Origin: a virus
IMG/VR virus record: IMGVR_UViG_3300042691_043155
Span: 2,644 to 66,643 of that record
Reading direction: 5' to 3' (one strand)
DNA: 64,000 nt
A model generated the notes under the pieces. The model worked only from the letters and a program-made list of their open reading frames with translations, was not told the origin of the DNA and made no database searches. Of this stretch, positions 12,667 to 57,786 are shown piece after piece. How positions within the stretch are numbered: position 1 is the stretch's first letter; the number at the start of each line of letters is the position of its first letter. The translations under genes were made by a program, and so were the position numbers.

Positions 12667-12931
12667 GTTTAAAGTAGGTGATGAAGTTTTAATCAAAACA
12701 CGTATAAATACCTTTGATGGGTTTTTTAAACATGGAATTATATTAGAAGTTGTTTTATCACCTAAACTACGTGGTGATAGTCTTGACGAATGGTATTATA
12801 GAGTTGAATATGATCCACTTGAAGGTAGAAGTTCGGAAAATCATAAATACACTGATTACTTTAATGAAACCGAATTAGATTACACATTACAAACGAAAAG
12901 AGATAATAAACTAAAGGAACTTGGATTATGA
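12557..12931 (+). CDS. Hypothetical protein (KFKVGD...FNE.ELDY family), C-terminal RDNKLKELGL tag; start uncertain
   Basis: Paralog of 13320-13607; overlaps uvsE 3' end in +1 frame. Confidence 0.7.
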   Translation: MKRFKRLVLNLIQRLKQKPKIWRLSSIEVSFKYSKAKFKVGDEVLIKTRINTFDGFFKHGIILEVVLSPKLRGDSLDEWYYRVEYDPLEGRSSENHKYTDYFNETELDYTLQTKRDNKLKELGL

Positions 12932-13323
12932 AAAATTATATACTCATAAAGTTACCTAATACTATTAATTGGTATTCAAAAGGAAAGACTATAACAGATT
13001 TAATGTATAGCTCAAAACCTCTTATAACTAATCACACAATTGATAGTTTAATCAGATGTGGCTTACAAAAAAGTTACCAAGATGATTATAGAAAATATGA
13101 AGGTCCGTTCAGTGTTATAGTAGATACTCTTAGACTTGATGGTATAAGAATGGATTATTGGTATGACGACCTAAAAGATAAAGGATTTGGAGTTATATCC
13201 AGAAATGAATTGGTTATAGATAAAAGGAAATTCGAATCAATTCCTAATATATTTAAAGATTGGTTAAACCCCATTATTGTAATGGAGACAAGAGATAATA
13301 AACTAAGAGAATTGGGAATATGA
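12928..13323 (+). CDS. Hypothetical protein, C-terminal RDNKLRELGI tag
   Basis: ATGA overlaps on both sides. Confidence 0.8.
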   Translation: MKNYILIKLPNTINWYSKGKTITDLMYSSKPLITNHTIDSLIRCGLQKSYQDDYRKYEGPFSVIVDTLRLDGIRMDYWYDDLKDKGFGVISRNELVIDKRKFESIPNIFKDWLNPIIVMETRDNKLRELGI

Positions 13324-13607
13324 TTTGGACTATATGGATATTAATAAAATCACTCTTTAAAAAGAAGGAAATAAATAAATCTCCTAAGTTTAAAGTTGGT
13401 GATGAATTGAAAATTAATAGCGAATTCTATAAAAATAGAGAAGGTGTTGTTTTGGAAGTTTCTGAACATTTTGTTGATATATGGATTTATCAAGTTGAAA
13501 TTAAAATGGATGATGGTTATAATCATATTCAATACTTTAATGAAAACGAATTAGATTATCCATTATGGAAGAAAAGAGATGATAGATTAAAAGAGTTAGG
13601 AATATGA
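13320..13607 (+). CDS. Hypothetical protein (KFKVGD family), C-terminal RDDRLKELGI tag
   Basis: Paralog of 12557-12931. Confidence 0.8.
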   Translation: MIWTIWILIKSLFKKKEINKSPKFKVGDELKINSEFYKNREGVVLEVSEHFVDIWIYQVEIKMDDGYNHIQYFNENELDYPLWKKRDDRLKELGI

Positions 13608-13804
13608 AAGAAAATACGTTAAGAGAAAATATAAAACCTGGTTTAAGAGTTTTAATAGTTTTAAAGAAGGATCAGAAAAGTGGAATACTAACAGAAGGTA
13701 TTGTTAAAGATTTACTAACTAAAGTGCCTAAGCATCACAGAGGTATAAAAGTTAGATTAGAAGATGGCCAAATAGGAAGAGTGCAAGAAATTTTAGATAT
13801 ATAA
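13604..13804 (+). CDS. YwbE (DUF2196) family protein
   Basis: IKPGLRVLIVLKKDQKSGILTEGIVKDLLT...HHRGIKVRLEDGQIGRVQ. Confidence 0.88.
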   Translation: MKENTLRENIKPGLRVLIVLKKDQKSGILTEGIVKDLLTKVPKHHRGIKVRLEDGQIGRVQEILDI

Positions 13805-14532: not shown

Positions 14533-14850
14533 ATGAAAGAAAAAATATTTAAACTGGCTAAAATAGAAGCCGAATGGATGAGGTACTACGGTCATATCGA
14601 CTCTAGAATTAGTGAAACTTTTGAAGATATAAACTTTTATGAGAGAATGTTACCAATTGGTTATTCTAAAGTTTATACACCATTAGTTAATAAATGTCCG
14701 ATGGGTTATGTCAATAGCTTAGATCTTGAAAAGGTTGAAGTTGTTTATGGTCCGAGAAATCATGAGAAAGGAGTTTACACACCACTAGAATATGTTATCT
14801 ACAACAAAGTTGATGGGTATTTAGATTTAATCAAACTGATAAAAGGCTAG
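14533..14850 (+). CDS. Hypothetical protein
   Basis: 105-aa ORF preceded by host-type TATCTTTG (14521-14528). Confidence 0.75.
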   Translation: MKEKIFKLAKIEAEWMRYYGHIDSRISETFEDINFYERMLPIGYSKVYTPLVNKCPMGYVNSLDLEKVEVVYGPRNHEKGVYTPLEYVIYNKVDGYLDLIKLIKG

Positions 14851-16128: not shown

Positions 16129-16527
16129 TTATCTACGCACCGAACTAAATCTATCCTTTATTATTTCTGATATTGGAACAGGTCCTCCCTCATCATCAAT
16201 TTGAACAAAAACCATTTTTGTGGAACAAACTAACTTCTCTTGAGATGTTTGAACATTATACTTTCTAGCTTCTAGATTTATAGTAATTGATGTGTTACCT
16301 ATACTATTTACAGATCCATATATTTTAATCAAGTTTCCAACTTTTACAGGATTTTGAAAAACAACCTCTTCAACTTTTTTAGTTACAATATTTGTTGTTT
16401 CACACACTTGATAAGCAAATGCTGCTCCAGCTTCATCTAGAAAAGACATCATATTACCACCAAATAAATTATTATTTACTCCTAAATCCAGAGTCATACA
16501 TATCTTAGTTGTTATTAATTCCATCAT
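16129..16527 (-). CDS. Acyl-CoA thioesterase (hotdog, YciA-like)
   Basis: DLGVNNNLFGGNMMSFLDEAG, VFQNPVKVG, IGNTSI, VFVQID. Confidence 0.9.
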   Translation of the reverse strand: MMELITTKICMTLDLGVNNNLFGGNMMSFLDEAGAAFAYQVCETTNIVTKKVEEVVFQNPVKVGNLIKIYGSVNSIGNTSITINLEARKYNVQTSQEKLVCSTKMVFVQIDDEGGPVPISEIIKDRFSSVRR

Positions 16528-16760
16528 AATCCTAAATCATTTAGTTTTTCATCTCTTATCATCATCTTCAATTCCTCAAACATTCTTACCACACCAGGTC
16601 CAAAGTCTTTTAAATCAGTCATACTCAATCTATAAATATATTTATTCCCGGTTTTTTTGTGTATGAATTCGTATACCGGCCTCATAGTATATTTATCAAT
16701 AATCATTTCACTATCATAGTAATGACTCAATTTTTCTAATTCTTGAGATAAATCTTTCAT
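16524..16760 (-). CDS. Small hypothetical protein, C-terminal RDEKLNDLGL tag
   Basis: Overlapping stop/start junctions. Confidence 0.75.
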   Translation of the reverse strand: MKDLSQELEKLSHYYDSEMIIDKYTMRPVYEFIHKKTGNKYIYRLSMTDLKDFGPGVVRMFEELKMMIRDEKLNDLGL

Positions 16761-17209
16761 AACCAATCATATTTTACTATTTCTACTCCAGCATCTCTTA
16801 AAAACTCTAAACCGGTTATATCTTTATAATCTTCAACATAAACTAATCTTTTAATTCCGGATTGTAAAATTAGTTTAGAGCAATCACGACAAGGAGAATG
16901 TGTTTGATAAAGAGTTCCACCATCACAAGAATGACCGTGTCTAGCACACTTTAGAATAGCATTAGCTTCACCGTGAATAACATCCCACTTAGTTTCTCCG
17001 TTATCCATTTCACATGCGTTATCTTGACCAGCAGCAGTTCCGTTATAACCATCAGAGATAATCATACCATTCTTAACTATAAGAGCACCAACTTGCTTTC
17101 TAGTACAGTGTGAAAGTTTAGCCCATTCACGAGCCATATTTAAATAAGTTCTGTCGTATCTTTCTTGTTTTTTCAAGTCATACACTACTTTATCAAATTG
17201 GTTTGCCAT
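16757..17209 (-). CDS. dCMP deaminase (ComEB-like)
   Basis: SHCTRKQVGA, GYNG, HGEANA, SPCRDC zinc motifs. Confidence 0.95.
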   Translation of the reverse strand: MANQFDKVVYDLKKQERYDRTYLNMAREWAKLSHCTRKQVGALIVKNGMIISDGYNGTAAGQDNACEMDNGETKWDVIHGEANAILKCARHGHSCDGGTLYQTHSPCRDCSKLILQSGIKRLVYVEDYKDITGLEFLRDAGVEIVKYDWL

Positions 17210-21035: not shown

Positions 21036-21043
21036 ATATTTAG

Positions 21044-21116
21044 TAGCCCTATGTGGATTCGAACCACAGTCTCTTAGTCGAAAAACTAAGTATCCTATCC
21101 GCTAGACGATAGAGCC
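21044..21116 (-). tRNA. tRNA-Glu-like with 8-nt anticodon loop (TTTTTCGA)
   Basis: GGCTCTA-TC-GTCT-AGCGGATA-GGAT-A-CTTAG-TTTTTCGA-CTAAG-AGAC-TGTGG-TTCGAAT-CCACA-TAGGGCT-A. Confidence 0.87.
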
Positions 21117-40621: not shown

Positions 40622-40938
40622 TCGTAACCTTCAGAATCTCTTAAATCATTTACCAAGTTCTCAACAAAACTAACGAATGTGTAAATAGTTGCGTCTTTTG
40701 AGAAAAGATGTTTATGTTTTTCGAAGAATCTAAAATATCTTTCTCTTGTTAAAAAGTTTTTAATCTCAACACAAACTTCTTTAACTTCATCACTAGTCAT
40801 TTCATAAGCCATAACTGGACCATCGAAATCTTCAAAGTATTTACCACCAACTTCTTTACAGATGGCACCTATCAATCTTTCCGAACTTATACTTGTTAAG
40901 AAACTACTACCGGAATTTGTTACAATTGTTCTACTCAT
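40612..40938 (-). CDS. Hypothetical protein
   Basis: 108-aa ORF. Confidence 0.72.
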   Translation of the reverse strand: MSRTIVTNSGSSFLTSISSERLIGAICKEVGGKYFEDFDGPVMAYEMTSDEVKEVCVEIKNFLTRERYFRFFEKHKHLFSKDATIYTFVSFVENLVNDLRDSEGYDCI

Positions 40939-41387
40939 ATTCCCAATTTTTCCAATCTATATTCTCTATATGCTTGTTTTGTAACAGAACCTAATTCATA
41001 TGCTCTATGGAAAAAGACTTCAAATATTTCTTCATGTCCTTTTTCTTTAGCAACCATTGCTCTATTTAGAGCTTTCCACTCATCATGAATTCGACCTGCT
41101 TGTGTTCTCGATAAAGATACCATCTTATCACAATCACCATTTGATTTATCAACTATGTCTTTTACTCGTTTATAGTTTTTTTCAAATTCGGCTTTACTTT
41201 GACCGTTCCATTTACCACTCATAATATCAAAACAATTATAAAATCCATTTTTAAGTCTTTGACCATTCCACTCTAGAGTGCCCGATAAGTTCTTTCTATT
41301 TATTTTACCTTTAAACCAGAACCAATAACAATTATCTCTTTCATTTTGTAGAAAGTCAGTTAGTTTTGATTTTGATAATTCTTTCAT
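40935..41387 (-). CDS. Hypothetical protein, YREYRLEKLGI tag
   Basis: 150-aa ORF starting 3 nt after the suppressor tRNA. Confidence 0.75.
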   Translation of the reverse strand: MKELSKSKLTDFLQNERDNCYWFWFKGKINRKNLSGTLEWNGQRLKNGFYNCFDIMSGKWNGQSKAEFEKNYKRVKDIVDKSNGDCDKMVSLSRTQAGRIHDEWKALNRAMVAKEKGHEEIFEVFFHRAYELGSVTKQAYREYRLEKLGI

Positions 41388-41390
41388 AAG

Positions 41391-41462
41391 TGCGAATAAT
41401 GGGATTCGAACCCATGACTTAGAGTTTTAGAGGCTCCTACTCTACCACTGAGTTATATTCGC
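41391..41462 (-). tRNA. Amber suppressor tRNA (anticodon CTA)
   Basis: GCGAATA-TA-ACTC-AGTGGTA-GAGT-A-GGAGC-CTCTAAA-ACTCT-AAGTC-ATGGG-TTCGAAT-CCCAT-TATTCGC-A; own TATATTTG promoter at 41475-41482. Confidence 0.88.
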
Positions 41463-41552
41463 GTATAATTTATACAAATATATAAAAAGTAATTAAAAAG
41501 TTATAGTTTTGAACTACATTTTTTTAATATATACAATAAAAATGGTGTTCAA

Positions 41553-42245
41553 ATGACTAAAATAGAAAAACTAACAAAAGATGAATTGATTATTTTAATT
41601 GATAATTCTAAAAGTATAAAGGATTTATTATTAAAAATTGGATATAAAAACACAGGTACTTATTTATATAATATATTTTATGAAGTTTTAAAAAAATATA
41701 ATATAGATAATCCGAATTTTAAACCACTACCAAGTAATTTAAAGGATTATAAAAAATATGAACTATCTGAAATATTTGTAGAGAACTCTAGTTTTAGAAG
41801 TAGAAGTTCAATGAAAAAAAAACTTATAAAGTATGGAATATTAGAATACGAATGTGCTAAGTGCTCTATTTCTGAGTGGCTGGGTAAATCAATCACACTT
41901 CAACTCGAGCACAAAAATGGAATCAACAATGATAATAGAATTGAAAATTTAGAGTTATTGTGTCCAAATTGTCATAGCCAAACATCAACATTTTGTGGTA
42001 AAAATATCAAAATGGAGGAAAAGTTTTGTTTATGTGGTGAAAAAATAGATAAGAAGAAGACAAAATGTAGGAAATGTATCTTGAATAAGATGAAGGAGAC
42101 AAACTTTAATAACAGAAAAGTTAAAAATAGACCGAGCATTGAGGAACTATCCAAATGTGTAGAGGAATATGGTTTTTTAAAAACTGGTAAGAAATATGGT
42201 GTATCTGATAATACAATAAGGAAGTGGTTAGGAATAAAAAAATAA
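41553..42245 (+). CDS. HNH homing endonuclease with C-terminal HTH
   Basis: LQLEHKNGINNDNRIENLELLCPNCHSQT; GKKYGVSDNTIRKW. Confidence 0.93.
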   Translation: MTKIEKLTKDELIILIDNSKSIKDLLLKIGYKNTGTYLYNIFYEVLKKYNIDNPNFKPLPSNLKDYKKYELSEIFVENSSFRSRSSMKKKLIKYGILEYECAKCSISEWLGKSITLQLEHKNGINNDNRIENLELLCPNCHSQTSTFCGKNIKMEEKFCLCGEKIDKKKTKCRKCILNKMKETNFNNRKVKNRPSIEELSKCVEEYGFLKTGKKYGVSDNTIRKWLGIKK

Positions 42246-42971
42246 TTAATTTAAAATATCATCTATTCTACCATTTCTTGACCAACAAAGATTATCTTCA
42301 ATTTCTCTTTCAATATCGCCATATTTAATAATACTACCAGTTGATATCATCTCAGCAATAACATAATTTATGATATAAGCACCACCTCTTAAATCATAGT
42401 GTAAATCAAGTACAAGATAATCAACGGATTTATCATTTGGTTTAGAAACTATTGATCCAATTGAATATTTAAGTAGATTGTGTTCCACTCCATCTTTATC
42501 ATATCCCCATATTTTGGAAAAGAATTCGATAGTAGCTTCTAATAAATAAATCCAAGCAATTATAGAAGAAGCATATGCACTAAAGTTATAAGTATATCTA
42601 ATATAATCAGTATTTAAAACTCTGTGTTCTGTTTGCTCAATATTAGAAATATCTTTTTCGCTAATTTTTACTTTATCATAAGTGCCATTTTTATTCATCT
42701 TTTTATTATCAAAAGATCTTACTTTTAGTTTGTCTAAAATTTCAAAAAAGAAATCAGATCTATCTTTAGCAATAGAAAATGTAAATCTAAAATCAATTAT
42801 TGGATCAGGACATTTAAAATTTGACATTCCTGTCGGAGAATTGTAACTTAGTTCGTTAATACTAAATTCTATATTAATATCAGTGGTATTAGTATATTTA
42901 GCAAACACCATTATATTATGTGGAAGTCTACCACCATTCCACTTCATTATATCTACGTCAGTTAACTGCAT
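42246..42971 (-). CDS. Hypothetical protein, SRNGRIDDILN tag
   Basis: 241-aa ORF. Confidence 0.78.
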   Translation of the reverse strand: MQLTDVDIMKWNGGRLPHNIMVFAKYTNTTDINIEFSINELSYNSPTGMSNFKCPDPIIDFRFTFSIAKDRSDFFFEILDKLKVRSFDNKKMNKNGTYDKVKISEKDISNIEQTEHRVLNTDYIRYTYNFSAYASSIIAWIYLLEATIEFFSKIWGYDKDGVEHNLLKYSIGSIVSKPNDKSVDYLVLDLHYDLRGGAYIINYVIAEMISTGSIIKYGDIEREIEDNLCWSRNGRIDDILN

Positions 42972-43699
42972 TTTCTTTTTCTTAAAAGGTTATTAATTTT
43001 TCTATTTCTATTCTCAACTGTTGAAATTGTTTTCTCAAACCCATCAAATTTAAAATTTGAGGTTCCGGTTCCAACTAATGTTAAATTAAATTGTCTTGAT
43101 AATAATTTGAATATTCTATCATTATGACTCTCAAGTCCTCTCAATCTTTGAGAGATATAAGCAATCTTAAATAATCTCTTTCTTGTTTGTTTAGGAAGTT
43201 TATCAAGGAACATTTCTAAATTATCAATCATTTCAGATCTGTAATAACTGGATGATAATTGCCATCTACTCATTCTGAATGTGTATTGAATATGCGAACT
43301 TGAACCCCAACCAACTGAGAAGTTTAGTTTTGAACTAATTTCAATTGAATACGTTTTTTCGTAATGAAATGCTTTTGAGTTATCGACTTTATCAGCCGAA
43401 TATGTATAAGATTTAACCCAGTCATATTTATCTCTTAAATATGTTTCACCCGGTTTAATTATAGTTGTTTTATGTCTTTTGGTTTTGTTGCAATAGTCGT
43501 AACTATATCTTGGGTATTTATAAGTGACTTCCATTTCACCGGTTTTCACTAATGTTCGATTATAAAATCGATATTCATTTGCCTTAAAATCAACGAATAT
43601 GGTTTTAAAGGCTTCAATTAGTATTTCTGCTAATTGTCTATTGGTAAACTTCTTAGTTTTCCAATCTAATTTTTCTACATTTGTAATCTAGTTGTTCAT
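42962..43699 (-). CDS. Hypothetical protein with in-frame TAG at codon 4 (MNN*ITNVEK...), NRNRKINNLL tag
   Basis: ATG at 43699 is in frame with the 42962-43549 ORF; the only stop in between is TAG at 43688-43690. Confidence 0.7.
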
Positions 43700-43710
43700 A
43701 ATTATTTATT

Positions 43711-43836
43711 TTATTTTTTAATTCTAAATCCAGTAAACCAAAGATCGATTCTGAAAAAGAATTGACCTTTATTTTTACCAAATCCAATTCTTAACATTCT
43801 ATTATCTTTGTCTAGTGGAATTTTTTCTAATTTCAT
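43711..43836 (-). CDS. 41-aa small ORF (not in ORF track)
   Basis: MKLEKIPLDKDNRMLRIGFGKNKGQFFFRIDLWFTGFRIKK; ATGA overlap with upstream ORF. Confidence 0.65.
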   Translation of the reverse strand: MKLEKIPLDKDNRMLRIGFGKNKGQFFFRIDLWFTGFRIKK

Positions 43837-52098: not shown

Positions 52099-52599
52099 AT
52101 GTATTTAAATAAAGATAGAAAAAATTGTACTCTATATTTTGTTAAATCAAACGATATAAATGATTTGATAAAAAGTAATAGTTTGGGGAGTGTGTATGAT
52201 TTAGAGATTTTAAAAAGTGATTCAGATAGCATTAAATATGGTAGAGTTGAAACGCAGATAGTAGGTGCTCTTAGATATACAACCGATGAAGATATTAGTA
52301 GTTTTATCGAGAAAAGTGATATAATAGTTGAAGTAATTAAGAATAAAAGTAGTTATTCTTCTTTTCATTTAGAACCATCTTCTTCGACAGAAGTTAGAAT
52401 AATAATGTATGAACTTTTAAACTTTAGTGAGATAAAAGAATTTGAAAATATTGGTAGTATTGAAAGAAGACTTATAACAACAATTGAAATTGAAATAAAA
52501 CCAATAAAAGTAGTTGAAACGGAATCAAATAATATTTTAAGAGATATAAAGTCTTTAATACGTGATAATAAATTGGATAACTTATTAGGAAATTCCTAA
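52099..52599 (+). CDS. Hypothetical protein, IRDNKLDNLLG tag
   Basis: 166-aa ORF. Confidence 0.75.
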   Translation: MYLNKDRKNCTLYFVKSNDINDLIKSNSLGSVYDLEILKSDSDSIKYGRVETQIVGALRYTTDEDISSFIEKSDIIVEVIKNKSSYSSFHLEPSSSTEVRIIMYELLNFSEIKEFENIGSIERRLITTIEIEIKPIKVVETESNNILRDIKSLIRDNKLDNLLGNS

Positions 52600-52950
52600 A
52601 TTATTAAGTTTTTCGTCTCTTTCAGCAGATTTTAATAGATTTTCTATTTCAGAATCTTCAACACTAAGAAATTTTTTAAATGATTTTATATTAGATATAT
52701 TAACTACGAATTCATTTTCCCAAAAATCTTCTTCGTTATCAGGTCTTATAATATTTAAGGCTAAGCCTAATCTAGCTTTGTTAGCTCCATATTGAACACC
52801 CCAATTTAAAATTGATAAAGTATTTACTTCACTACTTATAAACTTTTTAAAATCGGAAAAGTCTTTCATATACCAAGTCATTGGATGTACGTTTAGAACC
52901 TCTCTAATACCGACAGTTCTTGATAATATGTTCAAAGATATGATTATCAT
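52585..52950 (-). CDS. Hypothetical protein, ERDEKLNNLGI tag
   Basis: 121-aa ORF. Confidence 0.75.
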   Translation of the reverse strand: MIIISLNILSRTVGIREVLNVHPMTWYMKDFSDFKKFISSEVNTLSILNWGVQYGANKARLGLALNIIRPDNEEDFWENEFVVNISNIKSFKKFLSVEDSEIENLLKSAERDEKLNNLGIS

Positions 52951-52951
52951 A

Positions 52952-53317
52952 TTATATTATTTTATCTATATTAAAATTTCTTAATATGGCTTTTAATTCA
53001 GATACACTTTCTTGTATCTTTTCTGATTTAGTTATTCTACTAATATCTTGTTGTTTTTCAAACTCAGATTTAGCAAATCTCTCAGTTAAAACTTTTTTGT
53101 TATATTTAAACCATTCTTTTTGTAGAGTATTCGGCATACTACATATTTCAACTAGTTTATCCATAGTTTCAATTATATAGTAGTAGTTGTTATCTAATTC
53201 GAAAATTATATTACACTTTCTAACTATTGTATGATGTTCCCATGTATCGGAATAAGATACAATTCTCATTCCTTCTACTAAAAAACCACCAGCTCCATTT
53301 TCGCCAATTAGTCCCAT
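52952..53317 (-). CDS. Hypothetical protein, LRNFNIDKII tag variant
   Basis: 121-aa ORF. Confidence 0.72.
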   Translation of the reverse strand: MGLIGENGAGGFLVEGMRIVSYSDTWEHHTIVRKCNIIFELDNNYYYIIETMDKLVEICSMPNTLQKEWFKYNKKVLTERFAKSEFEKQQDISRITKSEKIQESVSELKAILRNFNIDKII

Positions 53318-54657
53318 TACTTAAATTTCTTTTTTAATTCATTTAAGTCATCAAGATACATATCTTTAGGATCGGTTTCTTCTAACTTTTTAATATCTAA
53401 CTTTTTATTTGTAAAATCTTCTTTCAATTTCTCAAATAATTCTTTAGTTAAAGAGTAGATTGGCATTCTTAATAAGTAGTCATAAGAATCATCTATCTTA
53501 TCCAACCCCATTTCTTCAATACCTTTTATGATATCTGGTTTAGAAACATTATTTACTTTTAACTTTTCATCTAAGATAGCTTTAATAAATCTACCTCTAT
53601 TACTTAAAACTTTCAATTCGTGTTGCATTTTATCCAACATGAATTTCTTTCTTTTATGATAGTATGAAAGTCTGAAATTAACAAAGTATTCAATTATATC
53701 AGATGAATTTTCAAATATCTTTAATTTACCCCATTCATCTAATGTTGAAAATATTTCAGTTGATGATTCTTCTAATTTTAAGAGTTTAACTAATTTTTCA
53801 TCGTCATATTTTTCTAAATCAGCTCTTGTAAACTTTATTGTATAATCAATGTTATCTTTACAATTATCATCATAAGAAACTATATCTTTATTATCACATA
53901 ACTTATCTAATATTTCTTCATATTTCTCATAAGTCATTGACGGTGGTAATTCAGTAATTCTAACAGTTGATGTGTTAACTCTTTGAAATTTTCCTTTTAT
54001 AATCCATCTTCTATTGTTCTCTGGATCTTGTATAAACTCACCTGTAAACTCATTAAGTGATGGTTTTATTTCTTTTATAGATTTACCATTTAATAAACTA
54101 ATACAAGCATCTGTGACAGATTTAACATCTCTGTTTAATAGATTCGATGAGAATCCAACGGCAATACCAGAAGAACCATTTATTAAAATAGTTGGTATAA
54201 TTGGGAGAAAAAACTTAGGTTCAATTATTTCACCTTCTTCTTCTTTATATTCAAGTAGTTCAAAATCTTTATAAAGTAATTTAAAGTTACCATTTAATTT
54301 AGTACCAATATATCTGGGAGCTCCAGCTTGTGGAGATCTCAATGAACCAAATTGACCAATCTCATCTAATAGAGGAGCATTGTTTTTGAATTTTTGGGCC
54401 ATTGTAGTAATTGCGTTTTCTAACGATTGGTTACCGTGATGGTAGAAAGCGTCAGAAGCAACTTTACCGGCTAATTGGAATACTTTTAATGGCTTCTCTG
54501 ATCCTGTTTTCCATATTTGATTACAAACGTGTATAATCTTCCTGTGTGTTGGTTTAAAACCATCTACAACAGAAGGAATTGCTCTACCCTCAATAGAGTA
54601 CATAGCGAATTCTTTATATTCGTTTGATAAAAATTCTGTAATACTTTTTTCAATCAT
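53317..54657 (-). CDS. Type II DNA topoisomerase, cleavage subunit (T4 gp52-like)
   Basis: RAIPSVVDGFKPTHRK, YHHG, GQFGS..AGAPRYI (catalytic Tyr), NGSSGIAVGF. Confidence 0.95.
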   Translation of the reverse strand: MIEKSITEFLSNEYKEFAMYSIEGRAIPSVVDGFKPTHRKIIHVCNQIWKTGSEKPLKVFQLAGKVASDAFYHHGNQSLENAITTMAQKFKNNAPLLDEIGQFGSLRSPQAGAPRYIGTKLNGNFKLLYKDFELLEYKEEEGEIIEPKFFLPIIPTILINGSSGIAVGFSSNLLNRDVKSVTDACISLLNGKSIKEIKPSLNEFTGEFIQDPENNRRWIIKGKFQRVNTSTVRITELPPSMTYEKYEEILDKLCDNKDIVSYDDNCKDNIDYTIKFTRADLEKYDDEKLVKLLKLEESSTEIFSTLDEWGKLKIFENSSDIIEYFVNFRLSYYHKRKKFMLDKMQHELKVLSNRGRFIKAILDEKLKVNNVSKPDIIKGIEEMGLDKIDDSYDYLLRMPIYSLTKELFEKLKEDFTNKKLDIKKLEETDPKDMYLDDLNELKKKFK

Positions 54658-55953: not shown

Positions 55954-57786
55954 ATGTCAGCTGATAAATATAAAAAATTAACAGATAGAGAACACGTACT
56001 ACTTAGACCATCTATGTATTTGGGTTCGATGAAACCAAATATTTCAAATAAATGGGTTTTTGAAGATGGTAAAATATTAAAGAAAGAAATTAATAATGTC
56101 CCGGCTTTTATAAAGTTATTTGATGAAATAATCACCAATTCCATAGATGAGAGTCGTAGAGATGGTAGTAGATTAAATGTTATTAAAATAAATATAGATA
56201 ATGATATTGTAACCGTTTGGGATAACGGGGGAATATCTGTTGTAAAAAATAAAGATGATGAGTGGATTCCAGAGATGGTATTCTCTAATATGCGAGCAGG
56301 TTCTAATTTTTCAGATGATGAGAATAGAACTTGGGCAGGTACTAATGGTGTTGGGAGTTCTTGTGTGAATATATTTTCAGAAGAATTTAGAATATCAACT
56401 TGTGATGGTAAAAACCATTTTACTCAAGTTTTCTCTAAAAATATGAGTGAGAGATCTAATCCTATTATTAAGAAATCAAAAGCAAATCATACTGAAATAA
56501 CTTATAAACCAGATTATGAAAGATTTGGTTTAAATGGTATTGATGACGATCATTTTAAAATGATTGAGAAAAGAGTTTATGATTTAGCTGCCTGTAACAC
56601 ACATTTAAAAATATATTTTAATGACTTATTGCTAAATTTTAATACATTTGAAGATTATATTAAGTTATATACGAGTGAATACTTCTATGAAAGTAATAAA
56701 GATAAAACATGGTCTATCGCAGTTGCACTTTCAGAAAACGGATTTCAACAAGTTAGTTTTGCTAACTCTACGGAGACTTATGATGGTGGTACACACGTTG
56801 ACTACATAATGGGTCAGATAATCTCACAGATGAGAGAATTCTTCTTGAAAAAACACAAAGTTGATATTAAACCATCTGAGTTGAAAAATCATATGACACT
56901 TTTCTTAAACTCAACCGTTATCAATCCTAGTTTCTCATCACAAACAAAAGAGAAATTAATTACTGAGGTTAAAGAATTTGGTTCTACATTTGAAGTATCA
57001 ACTAAGTTTATACAACAAATACTTAAATCCGAAATTGTAAACTCTATTTTAGATTGGATTCAACAAAAAAAGAATGCTGATGATAATAAATTACAAAGAG
57101 AGTTAAATAAAAAACTATCTAAGATTAAAGTGGATAAACTAATTGATGCTAAAGGTAAAGATAGATGGAAATGTTCATTGGCTCTTTTCGAGGGAGACTC
57201 TGCTTCTGGTGCTTTTAGAAAGTATAGAACTCCTGAAACAATGGGTGCTTTCTCATTAAGAGGTAAGTTTATAAATGTTTCTGAAATATCTAATCAAAAA
57301 TTAGTTCAGAATACAGAGGCTGTTAACTTAATGGCGGCAATTGGTTTGAAATTAGGTCAGAATATAGAACTTAAAACATTAAGATATGGTAGAGTATTGA
57401 TTTACACTGATGCTGATGTTGATGGTAATTCGATATCTGGATTATTGATAAACTTTTTCTACAAGTATTGGCCTGATATGTTCGAAAGAAGAATGATTTA
57501 TAAGGTTGAAACTCCGATAGTAGTAGCAACACCTAAAGATAAAAAGAAAAAGAAAGCTCTTTTCTATACTCAAAGTGAGTACAATGATTGGGAATCTAAA
57601 ACAGACTTAAAAGGTTGGGATGTTAGTTATAAAAAAGGTTTAGCAGCTTTGGTTGATGATGAGTATGGTGACATCATTAATAATCCAAAGTTAACACTTA
57701 TAACTAAAGATGATGTCTCTGAAACTTCATTAGATGTTTGGTTTGGTAAGAATTCGGATTTAAGAAAGACTGAGTTATTAAAATGA
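55954..57786 (+). CDS. Type II DNA topoisomerase, ATPase/TOPRIM subunit (T4 gp39+gp60-like, unsplit)
   Basis: EHVLLRPSMYLGS, DEIITNSIDE, GTNGVG, FEGDSA, LRGK, TDADVDG, YKKGL. Confidence 0.96.
   Translation: MSADKYKKLTDREHVLLRPSMYLGSMKPNISNKWVFEDGKILKKEINNVPAFIKLFDEIITNSIDESRRDGSRLNVIKINIDNDIVTVWDNGGISVVKNKDDEWIPEMVFSNMRAGSNFSDDENRTWAGTNGVGSSCVNIFSEEFRISTCDGKNHFTQVFSKNMSERSNPIIKKSKANHTEITYKPDYERFGLNGIDDDHFKMIEKRVYDLAACNTHLKIYFNDLLLNFNTFEDYIKLYTSEYFYESNKDKTWSIAVALSENGFQQVSFANSTETYDGGTHVDYIMGQIISQMREFFLKKHKVDIKPSELKNHMTLFLNSTVINPSFSSQTKEKLITEVKEFGSTFEVSTKFIQQILKSEIVNSILDWIQQKKNADDNKLQRELNKKLSKIKVDKLIDAKGKDRWKCSLALFEGDSASGAFRKYRTPETMGAFSLRGKFINVSEISNQKLVQNTEAVNLMAAIGLKLGQNIELKTLRYGRVLIYTDADVDGNSISGLLINFFYKYWPDMFERRMIYKVETPIVVATPKDKKKKKALFYTQSEYNDWESKTDLKGWDVSYKKGLAALVDDEYGDIINNPKLTLITKDDVSETSLDVWFGKNSDLRKTELLK

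What the first reader, a model, noticed from the sequence alone, without database searches (positions are those of the whole stretch)
42962..43699. Amber-gated gene: in-frame TAG at codon 4, 1.5 kb from the suppressor tRNA
Seen: the ORF track starts this gene at a GTG (43549), but the frame stays open for 46 more codons up to a TAG at 43688-43690. Three codons above it is an ATG (43699) placed 11 nt after the upstream stop in a typical aataaataattATG context. Translation: MNN*ITNVEKLDWKTKKFTNRQLAEILIEAFKTIFVDFKANEYRFYNRTLVKTGEMEVTY... Inference: the full 245-aa protein is made only when the phage suppressor tRNA is present, a possible timing or self-recognition switch. A recent nonsense mutation tolerated because of the suppressor is the simpler alternative.
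Basis: partly seen in the sequence, partly recalled or inferred. Interest (0 to 1): 0.85.

Follow-up and report, generated by a model that had tools for sequence, protein, structure and literature searches.

The report
Conserved amber-gated gene in jumbo phage
A lake phage that otherwise reads DNA with the normal code keeps a UAG stop as the fourth codon of one gene of unknown function and carries its own UAG-reading tRNA, so the protein is probably made only when that tRNA overrides the stop.

Summary
In detail: minus-strand frame 42962-43699 reads ATG AAC AAC TAG ATT..., and a high-scoring tRNA(CUA) lies at 41390-41462.

The TAG is old, not a recent nonsense mutation.
- It is present in 3 of 3 DNA loci read and in the contigs that cover it in 4 runs from 4 studies.
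- All 42 N-complete database relatives read M-x-N-Q-I, including a clade only 28% identical.
- Every relative on a contig above 6.3 kb was called N-truncated at varying downstream starts.
- One truncated call equals the code-11 ORF of L001, whose DNA has TAG.

Residues 5-50 are coding and part of the predicted fold. No downstream start codon is conserved.

The 66.6-kb record is about 23% of a jumbo phage. It otherwise uses code 11: 92% coding density, and about 8 genes end in TAG.

Best reading (0.55): programmed read-through by the phage tRNA(CUA). This is inferred. Relative L001 lacks the tRNA at the syntenic site.

Function is unknown. This scan noted similar amber-gated genes on other phage DNA.

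The parts
42962..43699 (-). Gene of unknown function, 245 codons plus TAA stop, with TAG as codon 4. Its family has no Pfam, PHROG or PDB relative.
   Evidence: Searches give the frame. Searches give the homologues. Searches found no known family or fold. One search is the AF2 model of 87%-identical relative P0002, pLDDT 82.6.
43697..43699 (-). ATG start. It is the only canonical start between the upstream in-frame TAA (43708-43706) and the TAG. The upstream context is AT-rich with no Shine-Dalgarno, as is typical here.
   Evidence: Searches show the stop-to-stop frame starting at 43705. In one search only 8 of 107 ORFs have an SD-like 4-mer, and T is at position -1 in 59%.
43688..43690 (-). 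In-frame TAG (codon 4), flanked by AAC and ATT. It is conserved in relatives.
   Evidence: Searches give the DNA. Searches give the indirect, family-wide evidence.
43550..43687 (-). Codons 5-50. They are open, conserved and part of the fold. Code-11 gene calls lose them.
   Evidence: One search gives the codon table. One search gives dN 0.08-0.10, the same as the rest of the gene. In one search, helix 20-40 has pLDDT about 90.
41390..41462 (-). tRNA with anticodon CUA (amber suppressor), on the same strand and downstream of the gene. The gene at 41387 starts 3 nt after it.
   Evidence: ARAGORN; cloverleaf: G1-C72, C2-G71, G3-C70, A73, C31/A39 mismatch; Rfam tRNA, 69.8 bits; sequence.
41553..42245 (+). 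HNH homing endonuclease next to the tRNA. HNH plus tRNA form a cassette that relative L001 lacks.
   Evidence: phrog_10822, E 7e-45; translation; L001 has a 158-aa ORF there instead; that ORF has no match in G000.
43711..43836 (-). Upstream 41-aa ORF of the same leftward gene string. Its TAA lies 11 nt before the ATG.
   Evidence: L001 6828..6953. One search gives 95% identity.
42246..42971 (-). Downstream 241-aa gene. Its ATG overlaps the last 10 nt of the amber-gated gene, so its translation may be coupled to it.
   Evidence: One search gives 78% identity to L001. One search finds no PHROG.

Best explanation
The TAG at codon 4 is a programmed, evolutionarily maintained in-frame amber codon.

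Ribosomes start at the ATG at 43699. With host release factor 1 alone, they would mostly release the tripeptide Met-Asn-Asn.

When the phage's own tRNA(CUA) (41390-41462) is expressed and charged, it decodes UAG. The favourable UAG-A context helps. The ribosome then goes on to make the full 245-aa protein. This probably also delivers ribosomes to the overlapping downstream gene.

The gene is therefore licensed by the phage's suppressor tRNA, a one-codon translational lock inside a genome that otherwise uses the standard code.

Shown:
- the codon, its conservation, and the coding nature of residues 5-50;
- the lack of a conserved alternative start;
- the presence of a well-formed tRNA(CUA);
- the standard-code character of the fragment.

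Inferred:
- that this tRNA reads this codon;
- which residue it inserts;
- that the purpose is gating (timing, dosage or self-recognition).
For: (1) TAG is present in 3 of 3 DNA loci: the window, L001 at 86% aa identity, L002 at 74%. In 4 runs of 4 studies, the contigs that cover the codon keep it.

(2) All 42 N-complete database relatives begin M-[N/K/I]-N-Q-I. N3, 'Q'4 and I5 are invariant, even in the P0035 clade, which is 28% identical overall.

(3) The 'Q' is best read as TAG translated by a code-15 gene model.
- Within single 90% clusters, full-length forms sit only on contigs of 6,217 bp or less.
- All 19 members listed with a longest contig above 6.3 kb (up to 231,750 bp, and one of 629,176 bp) are N-truncated. 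They start at different places: L26, L38, V51, M88, M146, or residues 8-10.
- P0058 (218 aa, contig 45,796) is 218/218 identical to the code-11 ORF of L001, whose DNA has TAG.
- P0002 ('Q4') is 241/243 identical to L001 read with TAG=Q.

(4) No downstream start is conserved. L001 has GTA at codon 51 and ACA at codon 56, and its first start is TTG at codon 26.

(5) Codons 5-50 are coding.
- dN is 0.08-0.10, against 0.08-0.13 in the rest of the gene.
- Helix 20-40 is modelled at pLDDT about 90 as part of the fold, while residues 1-7, which include the amber position, are disordered.

(6) A canonical tRNA(CUA) lies on the same strand 1.5 kb downstream.

(7) The fragment otherwise uses code 11. 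It has 107 ORFs and 92% coding density, with stops TAA 67, TGA 30, TAG 10. This is the only credible early in-frame TAG. It is also the only in-frame TAG shared inside conserved coding sequence in the 15.7 kb syntenic with L001.

(8) Context, as weak evidence.
- The in-frame TAG is followed by A. Six of the 8 credible terminator TAGs are followed by T, two of them as TAG-TAA.
- From recall, not from a call: E. coli work by Bossi 1983, Miller and Albertini 1983, and Poole et al. 1995 found that a 3' A favours suppression and a 3' U favours termination.
Against: (a) L001 keeps the TAG. It lacks the HNH-tRNA cassette at the syntenic site and has no tRNA in its 15.7 kb. I could not read the remaining 30 kb of its contig. 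So co-occurrence of gene and tRNA is shown in one genome only.

(b) The tRNA sits beside a homing endonuclease. It therefore looks like mobile accessory DNA, not a fixed partner.

(c) About 8 real genes end in TAG. An efficient suppressor would extend them by 1-27 residues.

(d) The tRNA's charging identity is unclear. It has a Gly-like acceptor stem but A73, and a C31/A39 mismatch. Its nearest phage tRNAs are annotated Gly at only 75% identity.

(e) No homologue with a sense codon at position 4 was found, so nothing shows that an amino acid is inserted there.

(f) ATT directly after the TAG is invariant. This also fits re-initiation.

(g) TAG identity across the three DNA loci is weak evidence on its own, because the first 6 codons are all identical. 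The deep conservation rests on inference from gene-call patterns.
Confidence: 0.55

Rival explanations
1. Mini-ORF plus re-initiation. ATG-AAC-AAC-TAG is a 3-codon leader ORF. Ribosomes terminate at UAG and re-initiate at the adjacent AUU (codon 5) or another non-canonical codon, so the protein is made without any suppressor. The mini-ORF loads or throttles ribosomes in a host without Shine-Dalgarno sequences.
For: ATT follows the TAG directly and Ile5 is invariant in 42 of 42 N-complete relatives. Positions 1-5 are more conserved than positions 6-9, which suggests a translation signal and not a protein constraint. L001 keeps the arrangement with no tRNA in view. The genome's genes mostly lack SD: 8 of 107 have one. 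Neighbouring genes are translationally coupled by overlaps.
Against: AUU is a poor start codon (general knowledge, recalled). An ATG already stands in frame 3 codons upstream, so a sense codon at position 4 would be simpler. Yet none of 42 relatives has one. A tRNA(CUA), rare in standard-code phages according to passages of Borges et al., sits 1.5 kb away. No structure that would hold a ribosome is predicted around the site.
Confidence: 0.15
2. General late-gene recoding, not a gene-specific switch. The phage is a partly TAG-recoded (code-15-like) jumbo phage. Its many in-frame TAGs lie in structural or lysis genes in the roughly 77% of the genome not in this record, and this gene is just one recoded gene that falls in the sampled part.
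For: The record is a fragment with 23% CheckV completeness, and no structural genes were seen among the 20 proteins scanned. Borges et al. describe recoding concentrated in late genes, with replication genes left in standard code (passages). GC is low at 28.5% and TAG is the rarest stop, which is the proposed precondition.
Against: TAG still ends about 8 genes here. On long Logan/ENA contigs of relatives (14-231 kb), the same collection that gives 'Q4' on short contigs gives code-11-style truncated calls. This suggests in-frame TAGs are rare genome-wide. The TAG sits at one fixed position near the start and is invariant down to 28% identity. It is not scattered through the gene, as it is in recoded genes. 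No release-factor gene is in the fragment.
Confidence: 0.15
3. Leaky termination without a dedicated tRNA. [quoted passage not shown] This holds a potent protein at very low dosage or couples it to host translation state. The nearby tRNA(CUA) is coincidental or merely boosts the leak.
For: L001 shows the TAG without a visible tRNA. The TAG-A context is weak for termination (recalled). Conserved in-frame stops with read-through are reported for bacterial genes (PMC7918605; I saw only the search listing and the start of the abstract).
Against: Spontaneous UAG read-through in bacteria is usually well below 1% (recalled), which is costly for a gene kept across a whole family. A phage-encoded tRNA(CUA) in the same contig is an unlikely coincidence.
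Confidence: 0.1
4. Recent nonsense mutation, pseudogene or sequencing error. The real product is the 195-aa GTG-started ORF, or nothing.
For: The code-11 ORF track starts at GTG 43549. The gene's codon score (0.28) is below the genome mean of 0.49 +/- 0.10.
Against: The TAG is shared by independent assemblies and divergent relatives. GTG51 is not conserved. Residues 5-50 are conserved and structurally integral. There are no frameshifts or further stops in any relative.
Confidence: 0.03

Closest known systems
Stop-codon-recoded phages with their own suppressor tRNAs (TAG read as Gln, 'code 15'; crAss-like, Lak, Agate and others). Sources: Borges et al., bioRxiv 10.1101/2021.08.26.457843, passages read; Peters et al. 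PMC9523058 and Yutin et al. PMC7886860, seen only in search listings and abstract starts.
   Same: A low-GC phage with TAG as its rarest stop. It encodes a tRNA(CUA) and has an in-frame TAG that must be read as sense. Gating of expression by suppressor availability was proposed there for late and lysis genes. Borges et al. also note a standard-code relative that has acquired a suppressor tRNA.
   Different: Here one codon of one gene, out of 107 ORFs in the fragment, is affected. It is always at codon 4 and invariant across the protein family. TAG still terminates about 8 genes, and coding density under code 11 is 92%. No Gln-aligned homologue exists. The gene is not a recognisable lysis or structural gene.
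Programmed stop-codon read-through genes, such as the Qbeta A1 read-through protein and retroviral gag-pol (recalled; reviews appeared in the listing).
   Same: A conserved in-frame stop is followed by conserved coding sequence. The outcome depends on competition between release factor and a tRNA at one codon.
   Different: Classical cases make two useful products, a short and an extended one, by rare decoding with host tRNAs. Here the short product would be a tripeptide, and the virus brings its own cognate suppressor tRNA. The stop therefore acts as an on/off lock and not as a ratio-setter.
Amber-gated genes next to tRNA(CUA) in other large standard-code phages, noted earlier in this scan (TAG at codons 3-8 of Pth2-like genes, and TAG-containing leader peptides). 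These are AI notes, mostly unchecked.
   Same: The same design: a large phage with the standard code, its own tRNA(CUA), and a TAG within the first few codons of a specific gene.
   Different: A different gene family. No Pth2 domain and no R-x-P-P leader peptide occur in this record. The gated gene is 1.5 kb upstream of the tRNA and not adjacent to it. The tRNA here travels with an HNH endonuclease.
Leader mini-ORFs or minigenes, and termination-reinitiation coupling in bacteria and phages, such as the lambda bar minigenes (recalled).
   Same: A 3-codon ORF (AUG-N-N-stop) lies at the 5' end of a message, in a string of translationally coupled genes.
   Different: The mini-ORF is in frame and contiguous with the conserved coding sequence. 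No canonical restart codon follows: the nearest is 47 codons away in the window and is not conserved.

Membership tests
TAG-recoded (code 15) phage genome | Many genes are interrupted by in-frame TAG, so code 11 gives fragmented genes and low coding density | tested here: not met
   Under code 11 there are 107 ORFs and 92% density. Reading TAG=Q lengthens no other credible gene. This holds only for a fragment of about 23% of the genome.
TAG-recoded (code 15) phage genome | Phage-encoded tRNA with anticodon CUA | tested here: met
   ARAGORN and Rfam tRNA at 69.8 bits, at 41390-41462.
TAG-recoded (code 15) phage genome | TAG is no longer used as a terminator | tested here: not met
   10 of 107 ORFs end in TAG, and about 8 of them are credible genes. 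One TAG terminator is kept, shifted by one codon, in L001.
TAG-recoded (code 15) phage genome | In-frame TAG aligns with Gln (CAA/CAG) in standard-code homologues | tested here: inconclusive
   All 42 N-complete relatives show 'Q', but this is most likely TAG translated as Q. No DNA with a sense codon was found.
TAG-recoded (code 15) phage genome | Accessory code-change genes (RF2, aminoacyl-tRNA synthetase) in some members | tested here: inconclusive
   No RF-1/PCRF-type domain (PF00472) in the record. The record is a fragment, and synthetases were not searched for.
Programmed stop-codon read-through gene | The stop codon is conserved in frame among relatives, with the downstream sequence under purifying selection | tested here: met
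   TAG in 3 of 3 loci. For codons 5-50, dN is 0.08-0.10 and dN/dS is 0.28-0.72; for the rest of the gene, dN/dS is 0.15-0.18.
Programmed stop-codon read-through gene | Demonstrated read-through product (protein or ribosome footprints across the stop) | not testable with these tools
   No RNA holder was listed among the sequencing runs, and no proteomics is at hand.
Leader mini-ORF with separate downstream start (uORF or re-initiation) | A start codon for the main ORF lies close to the mini-ORF stop and is conserved | tested here: inconclusive
   No canonical start is conserved: GTG51 and ATG56 in the window are GTA and ACA in L001. The non-canonical ATT directly after the TAG is invariant. Whether it is used as a start cannot be judged in silico.
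Nonsense-mutated pseudogene | The stop is lineage-specific, with relaxed constraint, further stops or frameshifts | tested here: not met
   The stop is shared by divergent relatives. No other lesion appears in any of the 3 loci or 42 full-length database members.

The most novel reading that the evidence does not exclude
The invariant AAC-TAG-ATT at codon 4 is a dedicated translational lock. Only a phage tRNA(CUA) opens it, and here that tRNA is carried on a mobile HNH-linked cassette. On this reading, the puzzling 'orphan' suppressor tRNAs of standard-code jumbo phages exist to license a small set of amber-gated genes such as this family. That would be a natural counterpart of the synthetic amber-suppression gene switch. 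It could also act as a self-recognition device, so that the gene is silent if copied into a genome or cell without the tRNA.
Probability: 0.4. Interest if true: 0.8.

Novelty: new variant of a known kind. Interest (0 to 1): 0.68.

Why it matters
Phage stop-codon recoding is known as a genome-wide or block-wise change of code. Suppressor tRNAs in standard-code phages have had no clear job.

A single amber codon kept at the same position across a whole gene family, in a phage that still uses TAG as a stop, would show that one stop codon plus one tRNA can serve as a gene-specific switch. It would also give those tRNAs a concrete, testable target.

There is a practical point too. Code-11 annotation cuts 50 residues, including an integral helix, from this family on every long contig. 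Code-15 calls on short contigs write a 'Q' that nobody has verified.

Tried and rejected
- **Phage GenBank collection.** No DNA or protein match for the locus.

- **IMG/VR viral contigs.** Three peptide-pattern scans (A1, A3, A4) and one tRNA DNA pattern found no relative.

- **GTDB genome contigs.** Two scans found none.

- **DNA of database homologues.** I could not read the DNA of the distant relatives (the P0035 clade, P0022 on a 629-kb contig, or the 200-kb contigs). I could not test co-occurrence with tRNA(CUA) either.

- **Rest of the L001 contig.** It is not held.

- **Function.**
  - No PHROG.
  - Only a sub-threshold Pfam hit: FcoT at 15.9 bits against a cut-off of 27.
  - No PDB sequence match below E 0.02.
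  - No Atlas lead.
  - The first AF2 model was too poor to use, pLDDT 52.8.
  - The second model (pLDDT 82.6) gave no Foldseek PDB match at E <= 0.001.
  - Its best VIA-align Z was 4.6, below the noise level the tool states.
  - Its one BFVD match is an uncharacterised marine-phage protein: A0A8D9FRE6, E 2.2e-8, TM 0.57.

- **Paralogues.** None in the window by HMM.

- **Expression.** No RNA holder was listed among the sequencing runs, so nothing can be said about expression.

- **RNA structure.** Folding around the start gave only a mild signal (z = -2.0). No structure is predicted at the ATG-TAG site in the centroid. I dropped the idea of a read-through-stimulating hairpin.

- **Frameshift or T4 gene-60-type bypass.** Rejected by reading the sequence. 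The +1 frame stops after 4 codons (ATG TAG), and the sequence directly after the TAG is conserved as protein.

- **Other early-TAG frames.** Those at 13764, 17541, 34624 and 47982 are ordinary genes whose ATG, GTG or TTG follows the TAG.

- **Motifs from earlier scan notes.** No Pth2 domain and no R-x-P-P leader in this record.

- **Literature.** Three full-text searches found nothing on a single conserved near-start amber codon gated by a phage suppressor tRNA in a standard-code phage. Supplementary tables, such as those of Borges et al., were closed and may list such cases.
Full report
**Observation**

On the minus strand the window reads TAA (43713-43711), then 11 nt (aataaataatt), then ATG AAC AAC TAG ATT ACA AAT GTA GAA.
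- The ATG is at 43699 and the TAG at 43690-43688.
- The next canonical start is GTG at 43549 (codon 51), where the code-11 ORF list begins the gene.
- Read through the TAG, the frame is 245 codons long.
- ARAGORN finds a 73-nt tRNA with anticodon CTA at 41390-41462 on the same strand.
- Rfam scores that tRNA at 69.8 bits, the highest of the nine tRNAs in the window.

**What the record is**

- G000 is a linear IMG/VR virus record of 66,643 bp. CheckV puts it at 23% completeness, so it is a fragment of a phage of roughly 290 kb.
- GC content is 28.5%.
- It encodes T4-type topoisomerase II subunits, several HNH endonucleases and many unknowns.
- Only 8 of 107 ORFs have a Shine-Dalgarno-like 4-mer. 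Start regions are A/T-rich, so the aataaataattATG context is typical for this genome.
- Runs that hold the stretch are labelled lake, freshwater or aquatic metagenomes, plus three labelled fungus metagenome.

**Genetic code of the fragment**

- Under code 11, a greedy set of 107 ORFs covers 92% of the record. Their stops are TAA 67, TGA 30 and TAG 10.
- Reading TAG as sense lengthens no other credible gene.
- Six frames have an ATG within 10 codons upstream of a TAG followed by 60 or more open codons. Four have a normal start 4-15 codons after the TAG, and one is antisense with a non-coding codon score.
- Only the target needs the TAG to be read.
- About eight credible genes end in TAG. The next base is T in six (two of them as TAG-TAA), C in one and A in one. 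The in-frame TAG is followed by A.
- This sample is small. The link to termination strength comes from recalled E. coli work, not from a call.

**Conservation of the TAG: direct evidence**

- Two metagenome loci encode relatives at 86% (L001) and 74% (L002) amino-acid identity.
- Both read ATG AAC AAC TAG ATT ACA AAC.
- In runs of four different studies, the contigs that cover the codon keep it. One of them has 7 other differences and another has 11. A further 46-nt piece of X10 aligned too poorly to be read.
- These close relatives alone are weak evidence, because the first six codons are all identical.

**Conservation of the TAG: indirect evidence**

The stronger evidence is indirect.
- All 42 N-complete database relatives begin M-[N/K/I]-N-Q-I, including the P0035 clade, which is only 28% identical overall.
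- Inside single 90%-identity clusters, these full-length forms occur only on contigs of 6,217 bp or less.
- All 19 members listed with a longest contig above 6.3 kb are N-truncated.
- The truncated forms start at different residues: L26, L38, V51, M88, M146, or residues 8-10.
- All members from the JGI source, 19 in number, lack residues 1-7.
- The link was checked in one case. P0058 (218 aa, contig 45,796 bp) equals the code-11 ORF of L001 at 218/218 residues, and L001's DNA has TAG. P0002 ('Q4') is 241/243 identical to L001 read with TAG=Q.

The simplest reading is that 'Q' is a code-15 gene model's rendering of TAG on short contigs, and that long contigs are called in code 11. That in turn suggests these phages are standard-code overall. 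I could not see which gene callers were used, so this step is an inference.

**The segment between the TAG and the first start is real protein**

- L001 has GTA at codon 51 and ACA at codon 56, so the window's GTG and ATG are not conserved starts.
- For codons 5-50, dN is 0.08-0.10, as in the rest of the gene (0.08-0.13).
- For the same codons, dS is lower: 0.14-0.29 against 0.54-0.71. This hints at an added nucleotide-level constraint near the 5' end.
- An AF2 model of the 87%-identical relative P0002, built with a 36-sequence alignment, reaches pLDDT 82.6 and pTM 0.72.
- In that model, residues 1-7, which include the amber position, are disordered. Helix 20-40 and strand 43-59 are confident parts of the fold.
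- A product started at codon 51 would lack them. The identity of residue 4 probably matters little.

**The tRNA and its neighbourhood**

- The cloverleaf is regular: G1-C72, C2-G71, G3-C70, discriminator A73, loop CU-CUA-AA, and a C31/A39 mismatch.
- Its nearest phage tRNAs are annotated Gly, at 75% identity over 88% of the query.
- Which residue it carries cannot be decided. 'Gln' is only a convention.
- The tRNA lies 90 nt from a divergently oriented HNH endonuclease at 41553-42245 (phrog_10822, E 7e-45).
- L001 is collinear with window 50935 to 35222. It replaces HNH plus tRNA by an unrelated 158-aa ORF, and it has no tRNA in its 15.7 kb.
- The tRNA is therefore on a variable, probably mobile cassette.
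- Whether the L001 phage has a tRNA(CUA) elsewhere is unknown.

**Mechanism**

I favour programmed read-through by the phage tRNA(CUA), at 0.55.
- Initiation is at the ATG.
- Without the suppressor, the tripeptide is released.
- With the suppressor, translation continues. It probably also couples to the overlapping downstream gene at 42971.

Rivals:
- A 3-codon mini-ORF with re-initiation at the invariant ATT (0.15).
- Membership in a wider late-gene recoding whose bulk lies in the unsampled genome (0.15).
- Leaky termination without a dedicated tRNA (0.10).
- A recent nonsense mutation or error (0.03, contradicted).

Frameshifting and bypass were excluded by reading the frames. No stimulatory RNA structure is predicted at the site.

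**Function**

Unknown.
- No PHROG, Pfam, PDB-sequence or Atlas lead.
- No solved fold above noise: Foldseek found none at E <= 0.001, and the best VIA-align Z was 4.6.
- The only structural relative is an uncharacterised marine-phage protein in BFVD.
- HMMER over 1.84 billion representatives finds only 13 proteins.
- The conserved core is the C-terminal half, ending in a basic R-N-R-K-I-N-x-L-L-R-K-R-K tail.

**Comparison with what is known**

- The closest published frame is stop-codon recoding in phages with their own suppressor tRNAs. It includes the proposal that recoding gates late genes, and an evolutionary path through low GC, loss of TAG stops and gain of a suppressor (Borges et al., passages read).
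- A 2026 jumbo-phage survey reports code 15 and CUA tRNAs in jumbo phages (PMC13037316, passages).
- This case meets the tRNA criterion. It fails the criteria of widespread in-frame TAGs and of TAG no longer terminating, at least in the sampled quarter of the genome.
- It works like a recoded gene, but the genome is not a recoded genome.
- It is best described as a one-codon, one-family variant.
- Earlier notes of this scan describe the same design on other phage DNA with other genes: Pth2-like genes and TAG-bearing leader peptides. Those elements are absent here.
- Three literature searches found no description of such a single-gene amber lock. Supplements were closed.

**Verdict**

- The nonsense-mutation alternative is rejected.
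- Suppressor-dependent gating is the best-supported but unproven mechanism.
- The main gap is that gene and tRNA are seen together in one genome only, and the one relative that could be checked lacks the tRNA at the same place.

Noticed in passing
window 41390-42245; L001 8408-9110: The tRNA(CUA) and the adjacent HNH endonuclease form a cassette. In the collinear relative L001 an unrelated 158-aa ORF takes its place. This looks like a swap hot spot between two conserved genes, which suggests the suppressor tRNA is mobile.
   Followed up: partly
16 ORF ends across the window, e.g. 12928-13323, 13320-13607, 16524-16766, 40935-41387, 42246-42971, 42962-43549, 52585-52950: 16 of 107 ORFs carry R-[DENKRSG]-x-[KR]-[LI]-x-x-[LI] within their last 16 residues, often as RDxKLxxLGI. 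They include the amber-gated gene and both flanking genes of the HNH-tRNA cassette (42246..42971 and 40935..41387). The meaning is unknown.
   Followed up: partly
window 43550-43687 (codons 5-50 of the gene): Synonymous divergence is 2-5 times lower in the first 46 codons after the TAG (dS 0.14-0.29) than in the rest of the gene (0.54-0.71), while dN is the same. This suggests an added nucleotide-level constraint near the 5' end.
   Followed up: no
TAG terminators at 14850, 14847, 24004, 26529, 33980, 39307, 48553, 52066: Six of the 8 credible TAG terminators are followed by T, two of them by an immediate TAA. The read-through TAG is followed by A. This may be a context split between 'stop' and 'read' TAGs, but the sample is small.
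   Followed up: partly
whole record: Only 8 of 107 ORFs have a Shine-Dalgarno-like 4-mer upstream. Start regions are A/T-rich with T at position -1 in 59%. This fits a host that does not use SD, such as Bacteroidota (host recalled, not tested).
   Followed up: no
window 987-50455, 18 sites: The 10-mer TTAATATATA occurs 18 times on both strands, including 29 nt before the HNH gene at 41553.
   Followed up: no
window 21043-21116: ARAGORN calls a tRNA of undetermined type with a two-base 'tt' anticodon readout, that is, an unusual anticodon loop. Rfam scores it at 48.6 bits, the lowest of the nine tRNAs.
   Followed up: no
window 53317-54657 (-) and 55954-57786 (+): T4-type DNA topoisomerase II subunits (phrog_551, E 2.8e-148; phrog_543, E 1.7e-185) on opposite strands. 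They mark the phage as a large T4-like or jumbo type.
   Followed up: no
protein databases (P0004, P0011-P0016, P0057-P0059, P0061-P0067, P0075-P0084): Public gene calls for this family are systematically wrong in one of two ways. They are either N-truncated by 7-146 residues under code 11, or written with an unverified Gln at position 4.
   Followed up: yes
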